Positions 11,621-30,561 of a stretch of DNA of 64,000 nucleotides are shown here, one piece after another. Source of the stretch: Alphaproteobacteria bacterium. Lineage in GTDB: Bacteria; Pseudomonadota; Alphaproteobacteria; Bin95. A program made the translations under genes and the position numbers. Under the pieces are notes generated by a model. It did not search any database. It was given only the letters and a program-made list of their open reading frames with translations, and was not told the DNA's origin. Numbering within the stretch: the stretch's first letter is position 1; the number at the start of each line of letters is the position of its first letter. The stretch lies in contig JAWLBX010000015.1 of the NCBI GenBank assembly GCA_041687435.1, forward strand, positions 5,860-69,859, read 5' to 3'.

Positions 11621-11739
11621 CATAACAGTGTCAGTAACCTCATTTAATTTGACAAAACCGGCGGATGATCGTCCCATCTCCCCCAGCCAAAGCAGGGATC
11701 AACCTGCCTGGAGCGGAGACAGAGGAAGGAAAACGCCTG

Positions 11740-12894
11740 ATGTTACGAACAACCGCTACTGCAATCATCGCGGCATGCCTCAGCACGGCAGCATTCGCCG
11801 ACGATCCCAAATTACCCAAGTCGATGGTGTGGAGCGCCTACGACCTGGGCTCCTCCGGCTATGCCGAGGCGACCGGCATCGCCAACGCGCTGCGGAAAAA
11901 CCACGGCACTCGCATCCGCATTGTACCCGCCGGCACCTCCATCGGGCGTTTGCTGCCGATGGTGACAGGCAAGGTGACTTATGGGTTCCTTGCCAACGAA
12001 GTGTTCTTTGCGACCGAAGGCACCTTTGATTTCGCGACACAGCAATGGGGCCCGCAAAATCTCCGGATCGTTTCAGGCCGTGTGGCATCCGTTGGGTTTT
12101 CGGTTGCAGGCGACGTCGGCGTCAAAGAAGTCAAGGATCTGAAAGGCAAGCGCATTGGCTATGTCCGGGGCAACCCCTCGGTCAATGTGAAGAACGATGC
12201 CTATCTGGCCTTCGGCGGGCTGACCCGAGGCGACATCGAACCTGTCTGGTTCGGTTCCTACAGCGCCATGAAAACCGCGCTGCTCGCCAACCAGATCGAT
12301 GCCTTCGGCAGCGTGCCCACCGCAGCCAACGTTCGCGAGATCGAAGCCAGTCCGCGCGGGCTGGTCTGGCCGCAATTCCCACCGGACGACAAGGAGGCAT
12401 GGGAAAACGTCACCAAAGTCGTCAGCTTTGCAGCACCCTACCGCGAAACCATGGGTGCCGGCATCTCTGAGGAAAACCCGCATTGGCTGGTCGGTTACCG
12501 CTACCCCATGATCTCGGTCTATCAGGACGCCGCGTCTGCGGACGAGGTCTATAACCTGATCAAAGCGATCGACCTGTCCTATGAGGACTTCAAGAACACC
12601 ACGTCGAGTTCGTCCAACTGGGCGCTGGAGAAGGCGGGGCCGCCGCCCTATGACGCGCCGACCCATGAAGGCACCATCCGCTATCTGAAGGAAAAAGGCC
12701 TGTGGACCGACGAGCATCAGGCCTGGCAGGAAAACCGCCTGGACCGCCTCAACAAGGTGCTCGCCGCCTGGGACGAGGCTCAGGCCGAGTTCACCGACTG
12801 GCGGATTGCCGAGCAGGAAAAAGGCAACAAGATCGATGCTGACGAAGCCTGGCCGGAATACTGGGAAAAAGCCCGCATGGAAAAGCTGAACTAA
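11740..12894 (+). CDS. TAXI-family TRAP transporter solute-binding protein (paralog 2 of 4)
   Basis: Very close paralog of the preceding gene; long stretches are identical, including the C-terminal 'AQAEFTDWRIAEQEKGNK' and 'EAWPEYWEKARMEKLN'. Signal peptide present. AGGAAGGA RBS upstream. Confidence 0.85.
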   Translation: MLRTTATAIIAACLSTAAFADDPKLPKSMVWSAYDLGSSGYAEATGIANALRKNHGTRIRIVPAGTSIGRLLPMVTGKVTYGFLANEVFFATEGTFDFATQQWGPQNLRIVSGRVASVGFSVAGDVGVKEVKDLKGKRIGYVRGNPSVNVKNDAYLAFGGLTRGDIEPVWFGSYSAMKTALLANQIDAFGSVPTAANVREIEASPRGLVWPQFPPDDKEAWENVTKVVSFAAPYRETMGAGISEENPHWLVGYRYPMISVYQDAASADEVYNLIKAIDLSYEDFKNTTSSSSNWALEKAGPPPYDAPTHEGTIRYLKEKGLWTDEHQAWQENRLDRLNKVLAAWDEAQAEFTDWRIAEQEKGNKIDADEAWPEYWEKARMEKLN

Positions 12895-12920
12895 GCCAGA
12901 CCGGCAAAACGCCCCCCAAA

Positions 12921-12950
12921 GCCGCCGGCGAGATCGCCGGCGGCTTTTTG
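12921..12950 (+). terminator. rho-independent terminator after TAXI paralog 2
   Basis: Hairpin gccgccggcgagatcgccggcggc followed by TTTTT. Confidence 0.6.
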
Positions 12951-13068
12951 TGTTATCACGAGTATCTATCGTACATTTGTGTTTGACAAAATTTTTCCAG
13001 GGGCGTTGCTTTTTCGTCCCCCAAAGCCGGATCAACCGGTGGGATGAAACAAACGGGAAGGAAAACGC

Positions 13069-14223
13069 TTGATGATACGCACAATCGCAACAGCAGTTAT
13101 GGTCGCCGGGCTTGGCTCCGCAGCCCTGGCCGCGGAGCCTGCCATACCGAAAACGATGGTCTGGACCGCCTATGACCTGGGCTCGACCGGCTATGCCGAA
13201 GCCACCGGCATCAGCAATGCCTTCAAAAAGAATTACGGCACGCGCGTCCGAATCATCCCGGCAGGCACATCTATCGGCCGGATTTTGCCGCTGGTGACTG
13301 GCAAGGCCACTTACGGCTATCTGGCCAATGAGGCCTATTTCGCCGCCGAAGGCACCTATGACTTCGCCACCCAGCAGTGGGGGCCGCAGGATATCCGCAT
13401 CATCGCCGGGCGTGTCGCCTCGGTCGGGATGGCGGTTGCGGGCGATATCGGCGTCAAAACCATTGCCGACCTCAAGGGCAAGCGTATCGGCTTCGTCAAG
13501 GGCAACCCGTCCGTCAACGTCAAGAACGAGGCTTATTTGGCCTTTGGCGGCCTGACCCTCGACGATATCCAGCCTGTCTGGTTCGGCTCCTACAGCGCCC
13601 TAAAGACAGCCGTACTCGCCACTCAGCTCGATGCCTATGGCAGCGCCACCGGCTCCGCCAATAGGCGGGAAATTGAGGCGAGCCCGCGCGGGCTGGTCTG
13701 GCCGGAATTCCGGCCGGAGAATACGGAGGGCTGGAAGGCGATGCAGGATATCCTCAGCTTCACCGCCCCTTATAAGGAAACCGTTGGCGCCGCATTGTCG
13801 GAAGAAAACCCGTCATGGCTTGTGGGCTTCCGCTACCCGATGGTGACGGTCTATCCACGATCCGTTGGTGCTGACGAGGCCTACGCCTTCGCCAAGGCCA
13901 TGCACGAAAGCTATGATGACTACAAAAATACCAACGCCCTCTCCCCGAATTGGGAAATGAGCAAGGCTGGCCCGCCGCCCTACGACGCACCGGCCCATGA
14001 AGGCAGCATCCGCTACCTGAAGGAGCAAGGGTTCTGGACCGCGGAACACCAGGATTGGCAGGACAAGCGCCTCGACCGCCTGAATGCGGTGCTGGAAGCG
14101 TGGGACAACGCGCAGGCGGAATTCCATGATTGGCGCGAGGCCGAGAAGGCCAAGGGCAACACGATCGACGCCGAGGCGGCCTGGGCTGAACATTGGGCCA
14201 AATACCGCGCCAGGCACCTGTGA
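13069..14223 (+). CDS. TAXI-family TRAP transporter solute-binding protein (paralog 3 of 4)
   Basis: Same family motifs (MVWTAYDLGSTGYAEATGIS, RIIPAGTSIGR, GNPSVNVKNEAYLAFGGL) and a signal peptide. More diverged from copies 1 and 2. Confidence 0.85.
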   Translation: MMIRTIATAVMVAGLGSAALAAEPAIPKTMVWTAYDLGSTGYAEATGISNAFKKNYGTRVRIIPAGTSIGRILPLVTGKATYGYLANEAYFAAEGTYDFATQQWGPQDIRIIAGRVASVGMAVAGDIGVKTIADLKGKRIGFVKGNPSVNVKNEAYLAFGGLTLDDIQPVWFGSYSALKTAVLATQLDAYGSATGSANRREIEASPRGLVWPEFRPENTEGWKAMQDILSFTAPYKETVGAALSEENPSWLVGFRYPMVTVYPRSVGADEAYAFAKAMHESYDDYKNTNALSPNWEMSKAGPPPYDAPAHEGSIRYLKEQGFWTAEHQDWQDKRLDRLNAVLEAWDNAQAEFHDWREAEKAKGNTIDAEAAWAEHWAKYRARHL

Positions 14224-14393
14224 TCCCCGGCACGGACCCAACCCGATGTGAGAAACCACCGGTCCTTTAAGGGGCCGGTGGTGCATCTAATGGTATGCAA
14301 ATTTGAAATTGACAGACTGCCCGCAAACGGTTCGGATAGAGCCGCTTGCCGGTCGGTTTGATGGCAACAACAGACAGAATGGAGAAAACGTCT

Positions 14394-15542
14394 ATGATTC
14401 GAACCCTTTTGACGCTGGCCATGGCCGGCGCAACCTCGGCGGCGCTCGCGGCAGAGCCGCAGCTGCCGAAAACTATGGTCTGGACCGCTTACGACTTAGG
14501 TTCGTCCGGTTATGCCGAAGCCACCGGCATGGCCAATGCTTTCAAAAAACGGTTCGGAACACGCGTCCGCATCATTCCTGCCGGCACCTCTATCGGCCGC
14601 ATGCTGCCATTGGTGACGGGCAAGGCAAGCTATGGCTTCCTGGCCAACGAAGCGTATTTCGCAGCCGAAGGCACCTATGATTTCGCTGACGAGCAATGGG
14701 GGCCGCAGGATATCCGCATCGTTCTCGGCAAGCCGACCTCCAACGCCATTGCGGTCGCAGCCGACACCGGTGTCAAAACAGTCTATGATTTGAAGGGCTT
14801 GCGGCTTGGCTATGTGAAAGGCAACCCTTCCGTCAATGTCAAGCACGATGCCTATCTGGCATTCGCCGGGCTGACGCGCGACGATATCGAAGTGATCTGG
14901 TTTGGTTCTTACAGCGCACTGAAAACCGCAGTGCTGGCCAACCAGATCGACGGCTATTCAAGCGTGACCACGTCGGCCAACATGCGTGAGATTGAGGCGA
15001 GCCCGCGCGGCCTGTGGTATGCGCAGGTACCGCCGGAGGACAAGGAAGGCTGGAAGAAGCTGACGGACGTCGTCGACTTTGTGAAGCCGATGGTTGAAAC
15101 GCAGGGTGCTGCGCTCAGCAAGGAAAAGCCGGCAAACCTGACGCAGATGCGCTATCCGATGGTCACCGTCTATCCGAAGGATGTGGGTGCCGACGAAGCG
15201 TACAATTTTGTGATGGCTGCCGATATCGCGTTCGATGACTACAAGGATGCAACGGCGACTGGCGAGTTCTGGGCTGTCGATCAAGCAGGCCCGCCACCTT
15301 ACGACGCGCCGGCTCACGAAGGCACCATCCGCTACCTGAAGGAAAAAGGCATCTGGACGGACGAGCATCAAGCCTGGCAGGACAACCGCCTGGCACGGTT
15401 GAACAAATACCTCGACCAATGGGGCGAGGCGCAGGCCGAATTTCACGAATGGCGTGAGGCCGAAGGGGCGAAAGGCAACAAGATCGACCCGAAAGAGGCT
15501 TGGCCGGGATATTGGGAGAAATACCGGATGGGCCAGAAGTAA
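14394..15542 (+). CDS. TAXI-family TRAP transporter solute-binding protein (paralog 4 of 4)
   Basis: Same family motifs and a signal peptide. Start at the internal ATG with a GGAGAAAA RBS. Confidence 0.85.
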   Translation: MIRTLLTLAMAGATSAALAAEPQLPKTMVWTAYDLGSSGYAEATGMANAFKKRFGTRVRIIPAGTSIGRMLPLVTGKASYGFLANEAYFAAEGTYDFADEQWGPQDIRIVLGKPTSNAIAVAADTGVKTVYDLKGLRLGYVKGNPSVNVKHDAYLAFAGLTRDDIEVIWFGSYSALKTAVLANQIDGYSSVTTSANMREIEASPRGLWYAQVPPEDKEGWKKLTDVVDFVKPMVETQGAALSKEKPANLTQMRYPMVTVYPKDVGADEAYNFVMAADIAFDDYKDATATGEFWAVDQAGPPPYDAPAHEGTIRYLKEKGIWTDEHQAWQDNRLARLNKYLDQWGEAQAEFHEWREAEGAKGNKIDPKEAWPGYWEKYRMGQK

Positions 15543-20699: not shown

Positions 20700-20776
20700 C
20701 GGGGTGTAGCGCAGTCTGGTAGCGCGCTAGTTTTGGGAACTAGAGGCCCCCGGTTCGAATCCGGGCTCCCCGACCA
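20700..20776 (+). tRNA. tRNA-Pro (anticodon TGG)
   Basis: 77-nt cloverleaf folded by hand. Acceptor stem cggggtg/ctccccg (one mismatch), D arm gcgc-agtctggta-gcgc, anticodon stem ctagt/actag with loop tttggga (anticodon TGG), T arm cccgg-ttcgaat-ccggg, 3' CCA encoded. Confidence 0.9.
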
Positions 20777-20841
20777 TTACATGGTCCATCGCTACGGCCA
20801 GCCCTGCAAAGTCGGCTTCGCCTGCACGCTGCGCCTAATGC

Positions 20842-21285
20842 TCAACCAAAACCGCCGAACGCCCTTGGCCCATAGAACCAAGCGCACCGTCCGGTACAGA
20901 CATCACCGACATGCAGTACAGTGCCGAGCGTGTGGACTGCCGTAACCAAGATCACGGCCAGGATCGACCATTTCGAAACCTGCCATGCCCGCTGATAGCT
21001 TTTTGTCCGATGCTGGCGCAGGTCATTAAGTTGGTCTGCCGTTTCCTCACCACTCGACCATTTCAGCGGAATGACTCGCAATATCAAGTAGCATGACAGC
21101 AACAATGCAATGAAAACCATGTCCAGAATCAAATGCATCACATTGAGAACCAAACTCTCAATCCAGATTGCGAGCGTCGCAAGGAAGATTGCGTTAAAGG
21201 TCAACAGGGCCGCAGCCTTGCCATCCAAAATACTCAGCAAAGCGTATTGATTCTTAACATCACTTGAGTTGAGTTCGGATACCAT
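20842..21285 (-). CDS. hypothetical small membrane protein (3 predicted TM), atypical AT-rich codon usage
   Basis: Start at the internal ATG (MVSELNSSDVKNQYALLSILDGK...), with a GGATAGG RBS 5 nt upstream that lies inside the 3' end of the deaminase gene. About 48% GC against a ~65% background. The C-terminal ~25 aa read into GC-rich host-like sequence. Confidence 0.45.
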   Translation of the reverse strand: MVSELNSSDVKNQYALLSILDGKAAALLTFNAIFLATLAIWIESLVLNVMHLILDMVFIALLLSCYLILRVIPLKWSSGEETADQLNDLRQHRTKSYQRAWQVSKWSILAVILVTAVHTLGTVLHVGDVCTGRCAWFYGPRAFGGFG

Positions 21286-21289
21286 CTGC

Positions 21290-21745
21290 CTATCCCGATT
21301 TGCTGATATCCTCATTCCAGATATCGGCGTGTTCCTGGATAAAACGGCGCATCATGGCAACGCAGCGCTGATCTTCGCGAACGATCACCTCAACGCCATG
21401 CCGCCGAAGGAAATCCTCGTTGCCGCCGAAATTCTGCGTATCGGCGATCACAACGGTTCCGACCCCGAACTGCACGATGGTTCCAGAGCACATCATGCAA
21501 GGGGACAGGGTCGTGAACAGCACCAAGTCGCCGTAATCGTTTCGCCGCCCCGCGTTCTCGAAGCACGCCATCTCGCCGTGCAGGATTTGGCTGTCGCGCT
21601 GGACGCGCAAGTTGCGGCCTCGCGCGACGATTTCCGGACCGCGCATCAGCACCGCGCCGATGGGAATGCCACCTTCGGCCAGGCCTGCTGTGGCCTCCGC
21701 AAAGGCGGCATCGATCCCGGTGTTCAAGATCGCATCTGGCAGCAA
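21290..21745 (-). CDS. cytosine deaminase, yeast FCY1-type (CDA-fold nucleoside/cytosine deaminase)
   Basis: 151 aa with zinc-ligand motifs HGEMACFEN (H-x-E) and SPCMMCSG (PC-x-x-C). Remembered alignment to FCY1 along the whole length (…GGIPIGAVLM…, …TTLSPC.MC.G.I…, C-terminal …RC..MM..FI.E….W.EDI). Confidence 0.8.
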   Translation of the reverse strand: MLPDAILNTGIDAAFAEATAGLAEGGIPIGAVLMRGPEIVARGRNLRVQRDSQILHGEMACFENAGRRNDYGDLVLFTTLSPCMMCSGTIVQFGVGTVVIADTQNFGGNEDFLRRHGVEVIVREDQRCVAMMRRFIQEHADIWNEDISKSG

Positions 21746-21789
21746 GCGTCTCCTCCGTCACTGGCCGGTCTAAAGGCGGCTCACTCCCC

Positions 21790-22674
21790 CTAGGCCGTCA
21801 CCTGTTCCGCGGTCAAGCCGTCGCCGGCCAGCGTGGTGCGCCGCATGTCGCGCGGTTCTTCCGACGGGAACGGACGAGCCCGGTGCATGGTGCGCCGGTT
21901 GTCCCAGATGACCAAGTCGTTCAGCCGCCATTGGTGAGCATAGACGAACTCGCGCTGGGTCGCATGCTCCGTCAGGTCGCGCAGCAGCAGCAGCGCCTCC
22001 GGCGTCGGCCAGCCCAGAATCTCACCGGCATGCGAGGACAGGAACAGCGACTTGCGACCTGTCGCCGGATGGCTGCGCACCAGTGACTGCCGCACCGGCT
22101 TCAATCTCGCCATTTCCTCTGGCGTGAAATCGGTAAAGCCAATCTGGCGGCGGGAATACATCTGCGAATGCTCACAAATCAGATCATCAATCTGCGCCTT
22201 GGTCTCATCGGCGAGCGCGTCATAGGCGGCGCGCATGTCAGCAAACTGCGTCTCCCCACCCCTGGACGGAATCGAGCGGGCGTGCAGCAGCGAGTATTTC
22301 GCCGGCACCGGCTTGAAGGAACTGTCCGAATGCCAAAGCCGGTTGCCAATGCCGAACAGCCGCCGCCGGTCTTCGCGGGCGAACGGCCTGTTGTCCTTGT
22401 CCAGGTTGGAAACATCGGCAAAGGTTTTGGCGATCCGCAACTCGTTATCGCTGCGCAGATTGGTGGTCACCGGCGCTTCGATCGGACCGAGGCTGAGGGT
22501 GAAGGCCATCTGCGTCTCGTCGTCAAGCGGTACCTCGCGGAAGACGAGGACTGCATGTTCATTCATGGCGGCGTGAATCTCGTCCGCCTGCTCCGGCGTG
22601 ATCGGCTGCGTGATGTCGATGCCGCTGGCTTCAGCAGCGAAACACGGGCCGATCTGGCGAGTGGTCAAGGGCAT
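21790..22674 (-). CDS. TauD/TfdA-family Fe(II)/2-oxoglutarate-dependent dioxygenase
   Basis: 294 aa from the internal ATG (MPLTTRQIGPCFAAEASGIDI...). The 2-His-1-carboxylate context 'WHSDSSF' and the C-terminal 'DNRRTMHRA' motif are present. The ORF-finder's upstream 241 aa are a GC-frame artefact. Confidence 0.8.
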   Translation of the reverse strand: MPLTTRQIGPCFAAEASGIDITQPITPEQADEIHAAMNEHAVLVFREVPLDDETQMAFTLSLGPIEAPVTTNLRSDNELRIAKTFADVSNLDKDNRPFAREDRRRLFGIGNRLWHSDSSFKPVPAKYSLLHARSIPSRGGETQFADMRAAYDALADETKAQIDDLICEHSQMYSRRQIGFTDFTPEEMARLKPVRQSLVRSHPATGRKSLFLSSHAGEILGWPTPEALLLLRDLTEHATQREFVYAHQWRLNDLVIWDNRRTMHRARPFPSEEPRDMRRTTLAGDGLTAEQVTA

Positions 22675-22842
22675 GGGCGCATCCTTTCCGGCCATTTCAG
22701 GGCTCTTGCCGTCCATGCTAGGCGGTCTCGCCGCGCGCGGGTAGCCCATTCGCACGCGCTTTACCGAAACAGCAGCCTTCCGGCATGCACGCTGCGGGGA
22801 TAGAGTTCCGCTCATCTCACCAAAGCAACAGAGGACACGCAA

Positions 22843-27906: not shown

Positions 27907-28689
27907 ATGCTTGAGCGCACCCCACAGGCTTTTATCAACGCCTGCTTCTCTTTGATGTGGAACTCCGGTTATTCAGCTACTATCGATACTGATTTGCGTG
28001 GCTGGGTGGATTTTCTAACCAACGCGTATCCGGATTCGCCCGTCAATGCAGCCTTCAACCCCGAATTCCATCGCCTGGAACCCGACAATTCGTTCTGGCT
28101 ATCCATTCGCCGGCGCAGCGATGGCAAGGTGATCGCTTGTATTTGCGACCGGTTGATCGAGTCAGACGATTTCCTGGAAGACCAGCGGCTCATGAAAATC
28201 TGGTATGGCGATCCGGCGACAAGCGGGGCGGCCCCCATGCAGATCGCGCAGCCGCGCTCCGCCTATCCTGATGTGCGCGGTAAGATCGGCCATCACGGCG
28301 GTCTCTGGGTCGACCGTAGCGAGCGACATAATGGGTTGGCATGGCTGCTGTGCCGCATCATCCGCGCCATGTCTCTGCAGCGCTGGCCGGATGTCGACTG
28401 GCACTGCGGCACCTCACTCGAGGGCGTGGCGGTACGGGATCTGCCAACAAATACCTACGGCTATACCCGTGTCGACCTCTTGCTCGACGGTTGGTTCCAA
28501 CCCAGTCAGCAGCACCATAAAGTGTTCATGACCTCGATCAGCGCCAATGAAATGAGCCTGCAAATTGCAGAGGATCTGTCACTGATCGAAATGAACACCG
28601 ACAAGCAAATGCGTGACGTTGTTTTTGCCGCTAGAGAGCGGAAGAGCAACACGCCGGTACTCCCGGCTGTGCAAGCCCTTGCCGGTTAA
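27907..28689 (+). CDS. hypothetical protein
   Basis: 260-aa ORF immediately downstream of an ~880-bp AT-rich non-coding stretch. Lower GC than its surroundings and no recognisable domain. Confidence 0.4.
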   Translation: MLERTPQAFINACFSLMWNSGYSATIDTDLRGWVDFLTNAYPDSPVNAAFNPEFHRLEPDNSFWLSIRRRSDGKVIACICDRLIESDDFLEDQRLMKIWYGDPATSGAAPMQIAQPRSAYPDVRGKIGHHGGLWVDRSERHNGLAWLLCRIIRAMSLQRWPDVDWHCGTSLEGVAVRDLPTNTYGYTRVDLLLDGWFQPSQQHHKVFMTSISANEMSLQIAEDLSLIEMNTDKQMRDVVFAARERKSNTPVLPAVQALAG

Positions 28690-29082
28690 TTGGGCACTCA
28701 CTCCTTGGAATAAAGGAAACTTATTCGCCTTCGCTATGACGAGATCACGCTCCAAGGCCCGCTGAAGGGCTTTGGAGCTGATGTCGGAAACGCGTATGCC
28801 GGAATAGCCACCCATGCCCCGCAGCGCGAACACGTCATAGCTAAAATTGCCGGGGTTTTCATCGTGCACATCGATGACATGGAACCAGCCCAGAACGCCC
28901 AGACGGGTCAATTCCATCAGCCCAACATCATCGATATCCGGCAAGATCCCGTGACGCCGGGGCAAGGAAAACCAGAAACGGACAAGCCGCGCCAACGGCG
29001 CGTCCTTGCCTTCATCCAGTTCGGTCAATGCGCACACACGCCGTTCTACGACATCGCCGCTTCCGGCTTCGCGTTCGATCAT
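28579..29082 (-). CDS. hypothetical protein (possible PAS-like sensory fold)
   Basis: 167-aa ORF whose 3' end overlaps the preceding convergent ORF by ~110 nt, so one of the two calls may be wrong. Weak resemblance to PAS-like folds only. Confidence 0.35.
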   Translation of the reverse strand: MIEREAGSGDVVERRVCALTELDEGKDAPLARLVRFWFSLPRRHGILPDIDDVGLMELTRLGVLGWFHVIDVHDENPGNFSYDVFALRGMGGYSGIRVSDISSKALQRALERDLVIAKANKFPLFQGVSAQLTGKGLHSREYRRVALPLSSGKNNVTHLLVGVHFDQ

Positions 29083-29109
29083 TTCGCACCTCGCGGCAAC
29101 AGCACGAAT

Positions 29110-29703
29110 TTATTGAAGATGGTCATTGCTGTACAACCAGTCGCCAGAGACCGATTCTCCATGCACAAGGACATATTCGAACGCCCCTGCATCGCGCAGA
29201 GGGAAAATCAGTTGGTCTATGCTATTACTCGCGTTCAGGTCCCGTCGGGAAAACCGTCTAGCAGCAGCGCGACGATAACGGACCGCATCCAGATATTCCA
29301 GGGCGAAAAGTTGCAATAACCGCGCATCATTTACGTGCCGTATGATCGCCGAGCCGAACTGCTGCCCTGCTTCCATCACAACCGCATCACCCGCCCAAAT
29401 CACCGGCCAATCGTCCGGGTCGCGCCCCACCACGCCGACGATATACGCCTGCTCGTCCAGCATGTTCAGCGATTGCATCACATCAGATACCATCCCGGTG
29501 AACTGGTAATATCCTGCAATTCCACATAAATCGACCCAGCGCAGCAGGGCTCGCTGCAACTCCTCCGTCGCCGAGAGAATAGGAATGTCGCTCGCTTCCA
29601 CGATCGCCGCAAGCTCCTTCTCAGGACCGATTCCGCCTTGAATGATCTTTCCCGAAGTCGACACGTTAACGTCCTTGTGTTTATAGACAAAGGATTTGAT
29701 CAT
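29110..29703 (-). CDS. hypothetical protein
   Basis: 197-aa ORF with no confident domain. Loosely similar in pattern to the preceding ORF. Confidence 0.4.
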   Translation of the reverse strand: MIKSFVYKHKDVNVSTSGKIIQGGIGPEKELAAIVEASDIPILSATEELQRALLRWVDLCGIAGYYQFTGMVSDVMQSLNMLDEQAYIVGVVGRDPDDWPVIWAGDAVVMEAGQQFGSAIIRHVNDARLLQLFALEYLDAVRYRRAAARRFSRRDLNASNSIDQLIFPLRDAGAFEYVLVHGESVSGDWLYSNDHLQ

Positions 29704-29754
29704 ACTTTATTCAGACAACTCTAACGTCATGACCCGCGTGACGCAATATTTGCT

Positions 29755-30561
29755 TCAACGATCACAGCTTCCCTTATGGCCATATTTCATGGCCGAAACC
29801 GATAAAATCATGCCGCTTTCCAACCAGAGCCGCAACAATGCCGCAGCGTGCGATCCGGCAGTATCCGCGCCGACACAGCCAGCCAGCGCCTCGCAAATCG
29901 CAGCGAACGGCTCGCCAGCCGCCAGTTGAGCCAGCGCCGCGTCCTCCGCTTCATCCAGCACCCGATAGCGGACGGTGTACCCGTCGCGCCAGACTAAAGT
30001 ATGATGCAGCGGCACCGGCTCCAGCGGGCCGGGCCCATCGCCTGCCGCCAACGCCTGATAGATTGCGGCGGCCGGTGTCGCAGCCGGCACCCGGCGCACG
30101 GCCAGATGAAGGGCGAAGCGCAGTTCCGGCCATTCCTGCGGGTGAAACGCCGCCATCGCTTCCACGCCGCACGCTGGCGCATCCGGCGCATCGAATGCGG
30201 CAGCAATGGCCCAATCCAGCGCGGCGACATCCGCCACCGCCGGTGTTCCGCTATGGTGGCTGGCCAGAAACCCCGCAAAGCCGTCGCCATACCATCGCGC
30301 ATTCCGCACTGCCGATGGCGCAGACGCGATATAGGCACGCGCAGCAGCATCGAAACCGTCATCGCCCAGCAAGGCCCAGGTCTTGTCGAAATTGGCCTGC
30401 AATACCTCCACCAGGCGGGCCGCATAGGCGTGGCGGTAGATGCCGAACAGGGTGGCCGCGCTTTCCCGCGGGCCGGCGTTGATGCCATCCGGTACGGTGT
30501 CGTTCCCGGTATGCAAAATTGCTGCCTGAAATTCGGCCTGAAGCGTAGCCAGATCGGTCAC
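29755..30561 (-). CDS. DUF2063 protein (MNIO partner subunit, BufC/MbnC/TglI-like) of RiPP operon 2
   Basis: 268 aa with a DUF2063-like N-terminal region ('[10 protein letters not shown]…[18 protein letters not shown]'). Its start overlaps the stop of the upstream DUF692 gene by 4 nt. Confidence 0.75.

What the first reader, a model, noticed from the sequence alone, without database searches (positions are those of the whole stretch)
20700..21745. tRNA-Pro-adjacent operon: FCY1-type cytosine deaminase translationally coupled to an AT-rich small membrane protein
Seen in sequence: 65 nt downstream of tRNA-Pro(TGG), on the opposite strand, is a 147-aa membrane ORF (3 predicted TM) using AT-rich codons (~48% GC). 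Its RBS (GGATAGG) and start lie within or just after the last codons of a GC-typical 151-aa CDA-fold deaminase gene (stop 21290-21292, start of the membrane gene 21285). The C-terminal ~25 residues of the membrane ORF run into GC-rich host-like sequence. This suggests the gene was inserted and its reading frame now terminates in flanking DNA. Established knowledge: tRNA genes are hotspots for integration of foreign DNA, and CDA-fold deaminases recur in toxin and anti-phage contexts, although the FCY1 type is classically a pyrimidine-salvage enzyme. Inference: either a salvage deaminase that has acquired a foreign membrane partner (a permease substitute?), or a remnant of a two-gene mobile or defence module. 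The strong compositional contrast inside one translationally coupled pair is unusual.
Basis: partly seen in the sequence, partly recalled or inferred. Interest (0 to 1): 0.55.

Follow-up and report, generated by a model that had tools for sequence, protein, structure and literature searches.

The report
Cytosine deaminase paired with PycTM-like membrane protein
A small three-helix membrane protein from an unnamed, rare family is tightly co-expressed with a cytosine deaminase, and distant relatives of the same membrane protein pair with an unrelated cytidine deaminase, which points to an undescribed two-gene module for handling pyrimidines.

Summary
tRNA-Pro(TGG), a 147-aa three-TM ORF and a 151-aa FCY1-type cytosine deaminase sit at the stated coordinates. 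A 4-nt gap separates the two genes and the RBS lies in the deaminase's last codons. The membrane gene has the lowest GC of 56 putative genes in the window.

It is a real gene under strong purifying selection (dN/dS 0.08). Its cysteine-containing C-terminal tail is conserved in homologues, so the frame does not run into flanking DNA.

The protein defines a family with no Pfam or NCBIfam model (about 250 clusters at 50% identity). Its only consistent similarity is weak, to the N-terminal half of PycTM and 2TM effector profiles.

The FCY1 pairing recurs in 6 of 13 lineages of the close clade, including Mycobacterium, and once with the gene order reversed. A distant clade of the family (hhalign 98%) sits directly upstream of Cdd-type cytidine deaminases in 5 of 5 loci examined. 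Other members are solitary or lie beside known defence genes.

My best reading, held with low confidence, is a pyrimidine conduit plus metabolic trap, a functional analogue of codBA. The main rival is a deaminase-controlled, PycTM-like gated effector.

The parts
20700..20776 (+). tRNA-Pro (anticodon TGG). Its 3' end faces the 3' end of the membrane gene.
   Evidence: ARAGORN; Rfam RF00005, 67 bits. The same tRNA sits beside the gene in L001-L003 and L005-L007.
20777..20841 (.). 65-nt spacer between the tRNA and the stop codon of the membrane gene. It carries no att-like repeat.
   Evidence: Sequence and repeat search. It is poorly conserved against L001.
20842..21285 (-). Gene for a 147-aa three-TM membrane protein from a family with no Pfam or NCBIfam model. 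It has weak PycTM-like similarity in its N-terminal half.
   Evidence: ORF; homologues; dN/dS 0.078; no consistent Pfam or NCBIfam hit; PADLOC PycTM E 8.5e-4; AlphaFold pLDDT 90.2.
21217..21285 (-). N-terminal segment, predicted cytoplasmic, that leads into TM1 (residues 1-23). It carries the family motif Y14-x2-L-x-I-L-D21-x-K23.
   Evidence: Y14, L17, D21 and K23 are nearly invariant across 150 family members. This is where the PycTM profile alignments begin.
21154..21216 (-). TM1 (about residues 24-44), with conserved F30, N31 and W41.
   Evidence: Hydropathy, AlphaFold helices, alignments.
21073..21141 (-). TM2 (about residues 49-71), with N48, H51, D55 and S64-C65 conserved in the FCY1-linked clade.
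20986..21072 (-). Loop and helix between TM2 and TM3 (residues 72-100), predicted cytoplasmic (5 K+R). It carries W76 and the motif R90-x2-R93-T94-x2-Y97-x2-A-W101.
   Evidence: W76 and R93 are nearly invariant in 150 members. The motif is retained in the distant clades. Charge count.
20914..20985 (-). TM3 (about residues 101-124), with H118 and G121-T122.
20845..20913 (-). C-terminal tail (residues 125-147), predicted extracytoplasmic, with conserved C130-x3-C134, F137 and F143-G144.
   Evidence: These residues are invariant in the five closest homologues and common across the 29-sequence clade. GC by segment.
21286..21299 (-). Coupling junction: the Shine-Dalgarno-like GGATAGG overlaps the deaminase stop TAG (21292-21290), and a 4-nt gap precedes the membrane ATG.
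   Evidence: Sequence. Equivalent tight junctions are a 4-nt gap in L001, a 2-nt gap in L008, an ATGA overlap in L011, a GTGA overlap in L012 and TAAATG in L021.
21290..21745 (-). Gene for a 151-aa FCY1-type (CDA-fold) cytosine deaminase with a TTG start. It has the HGE and SPCMMC zinc motifs and the C-terminal W-N-E-D lid.
   Evidence: Pfam PF00383, 1.5e-16. PDB yeast cytosine deaminase, 2.5e-34, covering residues 9-148. More than 7,300 homologues, the nearest named ones from Rhodobacterales.
21750..21756 (-). Shine-Dalgarno sequence GGAGGAG of the deaminase gene.
   Evidence: Sequence.
21790..22680 (-). Upstream TauD/TfdA-family dioxygenase gene on the same strand, 44 nt from the deaminase start. 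It may be co-transcribed and the synteny is conserved. This is context, not shown to be part of the module.
   Evidence: Pfam PF02668, 1.1e-66. The order TauD, deaminase, membrane gene, tRNA-Pro is the same in L001 and L002.

Best explanation
SHOWN
- 21745-20842 (minus strand) is a conserved two-gene unit. An FCY1-type cytosine deaminase is translationally coupled to a 147-aa inner-membrane protein.
- The predicted topology is N-terminus in the cytoplasm, three TM helices and a cysteine-containing tail outside.
- The membrane protein belongs to a rare family with no Pfam or NCBIfam model.
- That family has become linked to two non-orthologous enzymes that deaminate a cytosine ring. One is FCY1-type, whose characterised substrate is free cytosine. 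The other is Cdd-type, whose characterised substrate is cytidine.

INFERRED MECHANISM
- The membrane protein assembles into an oligomer that recognises and conducts the deaminase's substrate (cytosine here, cytidine in the distant clade) across the inner membrane.
- The family-wide cluster predicted to face the cytoplasm (Y14, D21, K23, W76, R90, R93, T94, Y97, W101) and the polar residues inside the membrane (N31, N48, H51, D55, S64, H118) would form the binding site and pathway.
- The co-translated deaminase converts the incoming compound to uracil (or uridine) plus ammonia. This traps it metabolically and feeds pyrimidine or nitrogen salvage.
- In this reading the pair is a functional analogue of the E. 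coli codBA permease-deaminase operon, built on an unrelated 3-TM scaffold that shares distant ancestry with pyrimidine-nucleotide-gated PycTM effectors.

HISTORY (INFERRED)
In this lineage the membrane gene arrived by horizontal transfer next to, or replacing the partner of, a resident deaminase beside tRNA-Pro. This happened before the split from the TARA Oceans metagenome relatives (L001-L007).
For: Real, constrained genes: dN/dS is 0.078 for the membrane gene and 0.071 for the deaminase, with similar dS (0.76 and 0.69).

Recurrent pairing:
- An FCY1-type deaminase is adjacent in the window, in L001-L004, L008, L009 (order reversed), L011 (Mycobacterium) and L012 (Mycolicibacter).
- A Cdd-type deaminase lies immediately downstream of distant homologues in 5 of 5 loci examined. 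These deaminases match NF004064 at 101 bits against a cut-off of 74, and PDB cytidine deaminases at about 1e-19.
- The two membrane clades are homologous (hhalign 98.4%, E 1e-14).
- Junctions are tight or overlapping throughout.

Salvage-type enzymes: both deaminase types keep their catalytic and small-molecule-binding residues. What their characterised substrates share is the cytosine ring.

Transporter-like features: polar and charged residues in the TM helices are invariant across Actinobacteria and Proteobacteria.

Context: neighbours of the close clade are metabolic or housekeeping genes with conserved synteny, with no integrase or defence genes. Solitary copies with host-like GC3 (L014, L015, L017, L018) fit a physiological role that does not need an adjacent partner.

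Established knowledge (my own): codBA encodes a cytosine permease and a cytosine deaminase in one operon. PnuC with NadR is a precedent for a facilitator paired with a metabolic trap.
Against: - There is no sequence or fold similarity to any known transporter. Pfam and NCBIfam give nothing consistent, and the best Foldseek PDB hits have E of about 0.8.
- The only consistent profile hits are to pore-forming defence effectors, PycTM and CBASS 2TM.
- Two distant family members sit beside known defence genes.
- The family is extremely rare: 5 loci in 185,579 species genomes, against more than 7,300 deaminase homologues. That is odd for a generally useful uptake system.
- Seven of 13 close-clade lineages show no deaminase in the DNA available. 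Some of those contigs are short.
- No transport, binding or complex formation has been tested.
- No pyrimidine-responsive riboswitch or regulator was found.
Confidence: 0.35

Rival explanations
1. Conflict or defence module. The membrane protein is a PycTM-like, ligand-gated pore or membrane-disrupting effector. The deaminase makes or destroys its pyrimidine ligand. It might, for example, convert a phage-derived or infection-induced cytosine compound into a uracil-type signal, or keep an activating cytosine or cytidine ligand low until infection perturbs it. The outcome would be abortive infection.
For: - PycTM profiles are the top hit for 10 of 10 diverse members. They hit 84 of 150 members (best E 1.3e-6), always co-linearly from the LY..L..LD.K motif through TM1 and into TM2. 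CBASS 2TM effector profiles come next.
- PycTM and PucTM are 3-TM proteins. PucTM forms a hexameric channel lined by TM2 (bioRxiv 10.64898/2026.08.12.744502).
- The distant member P0039 lies beside EVE, Mrr_cat, Macro and a PD-T7-3 fragment. P0138 lies beside a PD-T7-4 (DUF4145) gene and a LOG-like LDcluster4 gene.
- The distribution is patchy across phyla. The islets are AT-shifted and abut tRNA genes in three lineages.
- Kongming is a precedent for a deaminase-made base-modified nucleotide acting as an immune signal (bioRxiv 10.1101/2024.12.20.629578).
Against: - The PycTM similarity is weak (E 8.5e-4 for the window protein), covers only the N-terminal half, and Pfam finds nothing consistent.
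- No cyclase or other sensor is adjacent.
- Close-clade loci are not in defence islands. No homologue was found in phage, plasmid or viral-contig collections.
- Both deaminases are canonical base or nucleoside salvage types, not nucleotide or nucleic-acid deaminases.
- Solitary, fully ameliorated copies lie among housekeeping genes.
- dN/dS of 0.08 and stable synteny are atypical for defence genes, though not exclusive of them.
Confidence: 0.25
2. The two proteins are coupled, but not through transport or immunity. The membrane protein might tether or regulate the deaminase at the membrane, for instance next to another uptake system or near membrane-bound cytidine nucleotides. It might supply or buffer the enzyme's zinc through its His, Asp and Cys residues. 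It might instead be a small membrane enzyme acting on a pyrimidine-linked substrate.
For: - Tight translational coupling implies fixed stoichiometry.
- The FCY1-linked clade has conserved H51, D55, H118 and C130-x3-C134.
- The architecture (an N-terminal helix plus 3 TM) weakly resembles DgkA-type small membrane enzymes (Foldseek target-normalised TM-score, TMt, about 0.45-0.56, not significant).
- From my own knowledge, Firmicutes conserve a dgkA-cdd adjacency that has never been explained.
Against: - The His, Asp and Cys set is absent from the Cdd-linked clade, so it cannot explain the shared association.
- No enzyme or metal-transporter family matches.
- Nothing here tests a physical interaction.
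Confidence: 0.2
3. The adjacency has no functional meaning. The membrane gene is an independent horizontally transferred gene that happens to land next to deaminase genes, or is carried along with them.
For: About half of the close-clade lineages lack an adjacent deaminase. The window deaminase is phylogenetically a local type.
Against: - Adjacency recurs in at least 6 independent close-clade lineages across two phyla, with both gene orders.
- It recurs again in a distant clade with a non-orthologous deaminase.
- Junctions are coupled or overlapping.
- In mycobacteria both genes share the same atypical GC3, so they moved as a unit.
Confidence: 0.07
4. One reading: a recently inserted foreign ORF, or the decaying remnant of a mobile element at tRNA-Pro, whose reading frame now runs out into host DNA.
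For: The gene has the lowest GC and GC3 in the window and lies next to a tRNA.
Against: - The C-terminal tail is conserved in homologues from unrelated contexts.
- dN/dS is 0.078, and the same arrangement and composition are seen in a relative at dS of about 0.76.
- There is no integrase and no att-like repeat.
Confidence: 0.03

Closest known systems
PycTM and PucTM, the 3-TM ('pJV1-SpdB3 family') effectors of the Pycsar and Pucsar anti-phage systems
   Same: Small proteins (about 150-180 aa) with three TM helices and short helical cytoplasmic parts. PADLOC PycTM profiles are the only consistent hit for the family, aligning the N-terminal motif, TM1 and part of TM2. Their ligands are pyrimidine nucleotides (cCMP, cUMP), and the partner enzymes here act on pyrimidines.
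   Different: The E-values are marginal and cover only the N-terminal half. Pfam gives no consistent family match, and no homologue was found in the plasmid collection. The partner is a deaminase, not a nucleotide cyclase. The close clade has an extra conserved extracytoplasmic Cys tail and His and Asp residues within the membrane. No defence-island context is seen in the window.
CBASS 2TM effector profiles in PADLOC (I did not test whether these correspond to the SLATT family)
   Same: A few family members hit PADLOC 2TM effector profiles over the same N-terminal region. One distant member is next to a LOG/SLOG-like gene.
   Different: No SLATT family appears among the Pfam matches. There are three TM helices, not two. 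No SMODS or CD-NTase partner is present.
E. coli codBA operon (cytosine permease CodB plus cytosine deaminase CodA)
   Same: A two-gene operon that couples a membrane protein to a cytosine deaminase. This is the logic I propose here.
   Different: CodB is a 12-TM NCS1 permease and CodA is an amidohydrolase-fold enzyme. Here the membrane protein has 3 TM helices and belongs to no known transporter family, and the deaminase is CDA-fold. Comparison from my own knowledge; transport not tested.
Yeast Fcy1 and bacterial FCY1-type 'nucleoside deaminase' (CDA fold)
   Same: The window deaminase aligns over its full length at E 2.5e-34 with catalytic and cytosine-binding residues intact. It belongs to a family of more than 7,300 proteins common in marine Alphaproteobacteria.
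   Different: Most members of that family have no partner from this membrane family: more than 7,300 deaminase homologues against about 250 membrane-family clusters, and only 5 genome loci in 185,579 species.
Kongming (KomA deaminase, dITP signal, KomBC effector) and RADAR
   Same: These are precedents for a housekeeping-type deaminase that produces a base-modified messenger to switch on a defence effector. They are the template for the defence rival.
   Different: They use adenosine deaminases of another fold, nucleotide substrates and NADase or other soluble effectors. There is no sequence relationship to either gene here.
Anti-phage dCTP deaminase and AvcD
   Same: CDA-fold zinc motif. There is a weak local hit to the PADLOC dCTPase profile and to NCBIfam antiphage_deaminase.
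   Different: Only the roughly 50-residue zinc-binding core matches (30 bits against a cut-off of 400). The window enzyme lacks the kinase-like N-terminal domain and is FCY1-type.

Membership tests
FCY1-type cytosine deaminase (CDA fold) | Zinc-binding H-x-E and P-C-x-x-C motifs of the cytidine/deoxycytidylate deaminase fold | tested here: met
   HGE (residues 56-58) and SPCMMC (81-86). PF00383 at E 1.5e-16, above its cut-off.
FCY1-type cytosine deaminase (CDA fold) | Full-length similarity to yeast cytosine deaminase, including the Asn of RGxN and the C-terminal W-x-E-D lid that closes over the free base | tested here: met
   phmmer against the PDB gives 2.5e-34, aligning residues 9-148 to 16-160 of the yeast enzyme. 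RGRN and IWNEDI align with RGHN and DWFEDI.
FCY1-type cytosine deaminase (CDA fold) | Deamination of free cytosine | not testable with these tools
   Needs an enzyme assay.
PycTM / pJV1-SpdB3-like 3-TM Pycsar effector | Significant sequence match to PycTM profiles | tested here: inconclusive
   The window protein hits PDLC02365 at E 8.5e-4, aligning residues 15-89 to profile positions 14-87 of 165. Of 150 family members, 84 hit PDLC02364 (best E 1.3e-6), and 10 of 10 sampled have a PycTM profile as top hit. Only the N-terminal half is covered and Pfam gives no consistent match.
PycTM / pJV1-SpdB3-like 3-TM Pycsar effector | Three TM helices with helical cytoplasmic parts | tested here: met
   Hydropathy and AlphaFold model with pLDDT 90.2. 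Description of PucTM in bioRxiv 10.64898/2026.08.12.744502.
PycTM / pJV1-SpdB3-like 3-TM Pycsar effector | Encoded next to a PycC or PucC nucleotide cyclase | tested here: not met
   The neighbours are the deaminase, tRNA-Pro, TauD and MFS genes. No cyclase was found in the window locus or in any related locus examined.
PycTM / pJV1-SpdB3-like 3-TM Pycsar effector | cNMP-triggered loss of membrane integrity and protection against phage | not testable with these tools
   Needs experiments.
SLATT (2TM) effectors | Match to Pfam SLATT models or CBASS 2TM effector profiles, and two TM helices | tested here: not met
   No SLATT family appears among the Pfam matches for the window protein or the 150 members. 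Only 1-5 members reach PADLOC 2TM effector profiles at E of 3e-4 or weaker. Three TM helices are predicted.
tRNA-integrated genomic island | Location at the 3' end of a tRNA gene with atypical composition | tested here: met
   The gene ends 65 nt from the tRNA-Pro 3' end and the membrane gene is 3.3 sd below the window GC3 mean. tRNA-Ser is adjacent in L012 and tRNA-Phe in L013.
tRNA-integrated genomic island | Integrase or other mobility gene, and a direct repeat of the tRNA 3' end at the far border | tested here: not met
   No integrase or transposase family appears among the neighbours (only 25 of 40 families were listed). No repeat longer than a 12-nt chance match was found.
Permease-deaminase salvage operon (codBA type) | Membrane protein and cytosine deaminase co-expressed from one operon | tested here: met
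   A 4-nt gap with the RBS inside the upstream gene. Overlapping ATGA and GTGA junctions in mycobacterial homologues.
Permease-deaminase salvage operon (codBA type) | Membrane component belongs to a known nucleobase or nucleoside transporter family (NCS1, NCS2, CNT, NupG and others) | tested here: not met
   No consistent Pfam or NCBIfam transporter match and no structural match.
Permease-deaminase salvage operon (codBA type) | Demonstrated uptake of cytosine | not testable with these tools
   Needs uptake or 5-fluorocytosine sensitivity assays.

The most novel reading that the evidence does not exclude
This is a previously unrecognised two-gene immune or signalling system. A salvage-type cytosine or cytidine deaminase writes or erases a pyrimidine base signal, for example by deaminating a phage-specific modified cytosine compound. 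That signal gates a PycTM-related three-TM pore. The system would be a cyclase-free, base-modification-driven cousin of Pycsar, analogous in logic to Kongming.
Probability: 0.2. Interest if true: 0.85.

Novelty: new variant of a known kind. Interest (0 to 1): 0.56.

Why it matters
If the transport reading holds, this is a new, minimal (3-TM) class of nucleobase or nucleoside conduit. It would also be a second, independent solution to the codBA problem, relevant to pyrimidine and nitrogen scavenging in marine and soil bacteria.

If the defence reading holds, the Pycsar-type effector family extends to systems with no cyclase, and base deamination becomes a second-messenger chemistry on the pyrimidine side.

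Either way, a family of about 250 sequence clusters with no Pfam or NCBIfam model gets its first functional handle. The recurrent, translationally coupled pairing with two non-orthologous cytosine-ring deaminases gives cheap, direct experiments: 5-fluorocytosine sensitivity, uptake, ligand binding and phage challenge.

Tried and rejected
**Searches on the membrane protein that found nothing useful**
- Pfam, NCBIfam and PDB-sequence searches gave no consistent family.
- Foldseek against the PDB with both models and against BFVD gave nothing at E of 0.001 or better. The NINJ1, DgkA and LTC4-synthase hits are generic helical-bundle resemblances.
- tblastn against plasmids and phages, and three viral-contig scans, found no homologue. 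A phage or plasmid origin therefore could not be shown.

**Searches around the locus that found nothing**
- An att-like repeat of the tRNA 3' end was absent in the window, L012 and L013.
- No riboswitch or regulatory RNA lies upstream of the pairs.
- The promoter and terminator scan was uninformative.
- The literature library has no paper that mentions both PycTM and a deaminase. 'SLATT' searches returned only author-name noise.

**Ideas I rejected**
- The low GC is not merely a product of amino-acid composition. GC3 is also low here, and other family members have host-like GC3.
- Low GC3 is not a selected family-wide trait either, for the same reason.
- A polymorphic-toxin deaminase with an immunity protein does not fit. 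The deaminase has no trafficking domain and is canonical FCY1-type.
- A toxin-antitoxin pair does not fit. About half of the close-clade membrane genes are solitary, so the protein cannot be constitutively toxic.

**Technical dead ends**
- The search with the 150-sequence alignment was swamped by the candidate limit.
- The 29-sequence alignment was too diverse for the locus scan.
Full report
**1. The observation**

- tRNA-Pro(TGG) lies at 20700-20776 on the plus strand.
- A 147-aa ORF lies on the minus strand (ATG 21285, stop 20844-20842) and ends 65 nt from the tRNA 3' end.
- Upstream of it, a 151-aa ORF (TTG 21745, preceded by GGAGGAG) ends with TAG at 21292-21290. That is 4 nt before the downstream ATG, and GGATAGG spans the stop.
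- The downstream protein has three hydrophobic segments. AlphaFold predicts three long helices with high confidence: pLDDT 80.8 from 5 sequences and 90.2, pTM 0.81, from 29 sequences.
- By the positive-inside rule the N-terminus and the 72-100 loop (5 K+R) are cytoplasmic, and the C-terminal tail lies outside (inference).
- The compositional contrast is real. The membrane gene has GC 0.50 and GC3 0.59, the lowest of 56 putative genes in the window (GC3 mean 0.76, sd 0.05). The deaminase has 0.60 and 0.75.

**2. The membrane ORF is a functional gene with a complete frame**

- A word-indexed search of 5.8 billion proteins found only four homologues (90, 61, 51 and 50% identity), all from metagenomes.
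- An exhaustive profile search of 1.84 billion cluster representatives found 247 at E of 1e-3 or better, and 18 at 1e-30 or better.
- The five closest proteins share 50 invariant positions. These include the C-terminal C130-x3-C134, F137 and F143-G144. The same tail recurs through the 29-sequence clade.
- The GC-rich last 25 codons are therefore part of the protein, not host flank.
- Against the 90%-identical relative (L001), dN/dS is 0.078 for the membrane gene and 0.071 for the deaminase, with dS of 0.76 and 0.69. Both genes have been under strong purifying selection since those lineages split.

**3. The deaminase**

It matches PF00383 (1.5e-16) and aligns end to end with yeast cytosine deaminase structures (2.5e-34). 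HGE, PCxxC, the RGxN asparagine and the C-terminal W-x-ED lid are all conserved.

It belongs to a very large family, with more than 7,300 proteins at E of 1e-20 or better. The nearest named members (57-63% identity) come from Leisingera, Ruegeria, Roseovarius and Halovulum. The host is therefore probably a marine alphaproteobacterium (inference).

**4. The pairing recurs**

Table 1. Context of the close membrane clade (38-90% identity to the window protein)

| Lineage | FCY1-type deaminase adjacent? | Junction or neighbours |
|---|---|---|
| Window and TARA relatives L001-L007 | Yes, upstream (seen in L001-L004; a cut ORF precedes the gene in L005-L007) | TauD, deaminase, membrane gene, tRNA-Pro synteny; 4-nt gap |
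| L008 | Yes, upstream | 2-nt gap |
| L009 | Yes, downstream (order reversed) | 32-nt gap |
| L011, Mycobacterium sp. SMC-14 | Yes, upstream | ATGA overlap |
| L012, Mycolicibacter senuensis | Yes, upstream | GTGA overlap |
| L010 | Not seen | Usp-like gene upstream; short contig |
| L013, Afifella marina | Not seen | Housekeeping neighbours |
| L014, Microbacterium | Not seen | Housekeeping neighbours |
| L015, Paracoccaceae MAG | Not seen | Housekeeping neighbours |
| L016-L018 | Not seen | Short metagenome contigs |

A distant clade of the family is 25-27% identical to the window protein. Profile-to-profile comparison with the close clade gives 98.4% probability and E of 1e-14. In all five loci examined, the gene of this clade is followed after 0-36 nt by a deaminase of a different CDA family.

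Those deaminases are tetrameric Cdd-type cytidine deaminases. They carry the CAE and PCGRCRQ motifs and the ribose-contacting N-x-E-N (assigned from my own knowledge of B. subtilis cytidine deaminase). They match NF004064 at 101 bits against a cut-off of 74, and PDB cytidine deaminases at about 1e-19. These five membrane proteins are related to one another (56-92% identity), so they count as one clade, not five independent events.

Three other distant or intermediate members have no deaminase nearby:

| Member | Locus | Neighbours |
|---|---|---|
| P0039 | L026 | EVE, Mrr_cat, Macro, a PD-T7-3 fragment |
| P0138 | L019 | LOG-like LDcluster4 and a DUF4145 gene matching PD-T7-4 |
| P0010 | L028 | Small unknown ORFs and nuo genes |

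**5. What the membrane family is**

- No Pfam or NCBIfam model matches it consistently.
- No solved or viral predicted structure matches significantly.
- The only consistent signal is PADLOC's PycTM profiles. The window protein scores E 8.5e-4. Of 150 members, 84 hit PDLC02364 (best E 1.3e-6). Ten of ten sampled members have a PycTM profile as top hit.
- These alignments always run from the N-terminal LY..L..LD.K motif through TM1 into TM2, onto profile positions of about 15-77. A few members also hit CBASS 2TM effector profiles.
- A 2026 preprint describes PycTM and PucTM as 3-TM 'pJV1-SpdB3 family' effectors. PucTM forms a hexameric channel lined by TM2.

I read this as distant relatedness of the N-terminal half, not membership. 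The defining cyclase partner is absent and the scores are marginal.

Family-wide invariants (Y14, L17, D21, K23, W76, R93), together with R90, T94, Y97 and W101, all map to the membrane face predicted to be cytoplasmic. That is where a ligand site would be expected (inference). The FCY1-linked clade adds polar residues inside the membrane (N31, N48, H51, D55, S64, H118) and the external Cys pair.

**6. History of the locus**

- GC3 of the membrane gene ranges from host-like (L015 0.92, L017 0.83, L018 0.84, L014 0.78) to strongly AT-shifted (L016 0.475 in a locus of GC 0.63; L019 0.51). Low GC3 is therefore not a property of the family. It marks different residence times after horizontal transfer.
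- In the two mycobacterial loci both genes are AT-shifted (GC3 0.58-0.64 against 0.72-0.91 for neighbours). The pair arrived there as a unit.
- In the window, L001 and L008 only the membrane gene is shifted. The deaminase groups with Rhodobacterales deaminases and not with the other deaminases linked to this family, to which it is 40-44% identical. The NJ tree is biased towards top hits, so this is suggestive only.
- The membrane gene was therefore probably acquired next to, or its incoming partner replaced by, a resident deaminase. This happened before the window, L001 and L008 lineages diverged.
- tRNA genes abut the membrane gene in three unrelated lineages: tRNA-Pro here, tRNA-Ser in L012 and tRNA-Phe in L013. 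A rough binomial probability is about 1e-4.
- No integrase or att repeat survives.
- The family is rare: 5 loci among 185,579 species genomes with the patterns used, and none in the plasmid, phage or viral-contig collections.

**7. Mechanism**

What the two partner enzymes share is the cytosine ring of their characterised substrates, and the uracil ring and ammonia as products. The most economical reading is that the membrane protein handles the same small molecule.

I favour a conduit plus metabolic trap, functionally like codBA, at a confidence of about 0.35. The reasons are:
- the enzymes are canonical first-step salvage types with intact small-molecule sites;
- the close-clade loci are metabolic or housekeeping, not defence islands;
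- solitary, ameliorated copies exist;
- the TM helices carry invariant polar residues.

The main rival, at about 0.25, is a PycTM-like gated effector whose pyrimidine ligand is made or removed by the deaminase. Supporting it are the PycTM and 2TM profile hits, the defence-gene neighbours of two distant members, the patchy and transfer-prone distribution, and the Kongming precedent for deaminase-made signals.

A third possibility is tethering, regulation or cofactor supply. It cannot be excluded, but it does not explain the shared association across clades that lack the His, Asp and Cys set.

None of these has been tested functionally.

**8. Verdict**

A foreign membrane partner joined to a resident FCY1-type deaminase beside a tRNA is supported. 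A frame ending in flank, a recent insertion and a remnant are not.
- Neither gene is a member of a described two-gene system. The pairing of this membrane family with cytosine-ring deaminases did not appear in the literature library I could search.
- I rate it a new variant of a known kind, of moderate to good interest, with cheap decisive experiments available.

Noticed in passing
window 20700-20776; L012 1717-1807; L013 5666-5741: tRNA genes of three different identities (Pro, Ser, Phe) lie within about 65-210 nt of the membrane gene in three unrelated lineages. A rough binomial probability is about 1e-4. No att-like repeats or integrases accompany them.
   Followed up: partly
window 27907-30561: A second compositionally atypical patch: four putative genes with GC3 of 0.61-0.69, against a window mean of 0.76.
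   Followed up: no
window 11665-15539: Three tandem paralogues (67% and 63% identical to the first) that match the NMT1_3 family of NMT1/THI5-like proteins.
   Followed up: no
L019 4323-5704; L026 3086-5877: Distant family members sit beside defence-type genes. In L019 these are a LOG-like LDcluster4 gene and a DUF4145 gene matching PD-T7-4. In L026 they are EVE, Mrr_cat/NA-iREase1, a PD-T7-3 N-terminal fragment and a short Macro ORF.
   Followed up: partly
proteins P0126 and P0133 (no locus held): Two family members carry an extra N-terminal module of about 80 aa that looks like three further TM helices. Two members of the 150-sequence set hit the NCBIfam 'CBU_0592 family membrane protein' model (1.9e-8), and I think these are the same two proteins. 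This would be a fusion of two small membrane modules.
   Followed up: no
BFVD entry S5VYM5 (149 aa, unnamed viral protein; the neighbouring accession S5VZR2 is from Pseudomonas phage PaBG): Best viral fold match to the membrane-protein model: TM-score 0.64, rmsd 2.3 A over 115 columns, Foldseek probability 1.00 but E of 0.26 and 14% identity.
   Followed up: no
L021 1409-3058: A group II intron (RF00029 plus an RVT_N/RVT_1/GIIM reverse transcriptase) lies immediately downstream of a membrane-Cdd pair.
   Followed up: no
deaminase homologues P0187-P0191 (no loci held): Deaminases 80-82% identical to the window enzyme exist in metagenomes, one on a 20.6-kb contig. No membrane homologue of matching identity was returned by the protein search. 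This may be presence/absence polymorphism of the membrane gene among close relatives.
   Followed up: no
L012 1837-2301: A TadA-like deaminase with host-typical GC3 (0.89) lies just beyond tRNA-Ser. It shows that the AT-shifted deaminase-membrane islet is distinct from the resident deaminase.
   Followed up: partly
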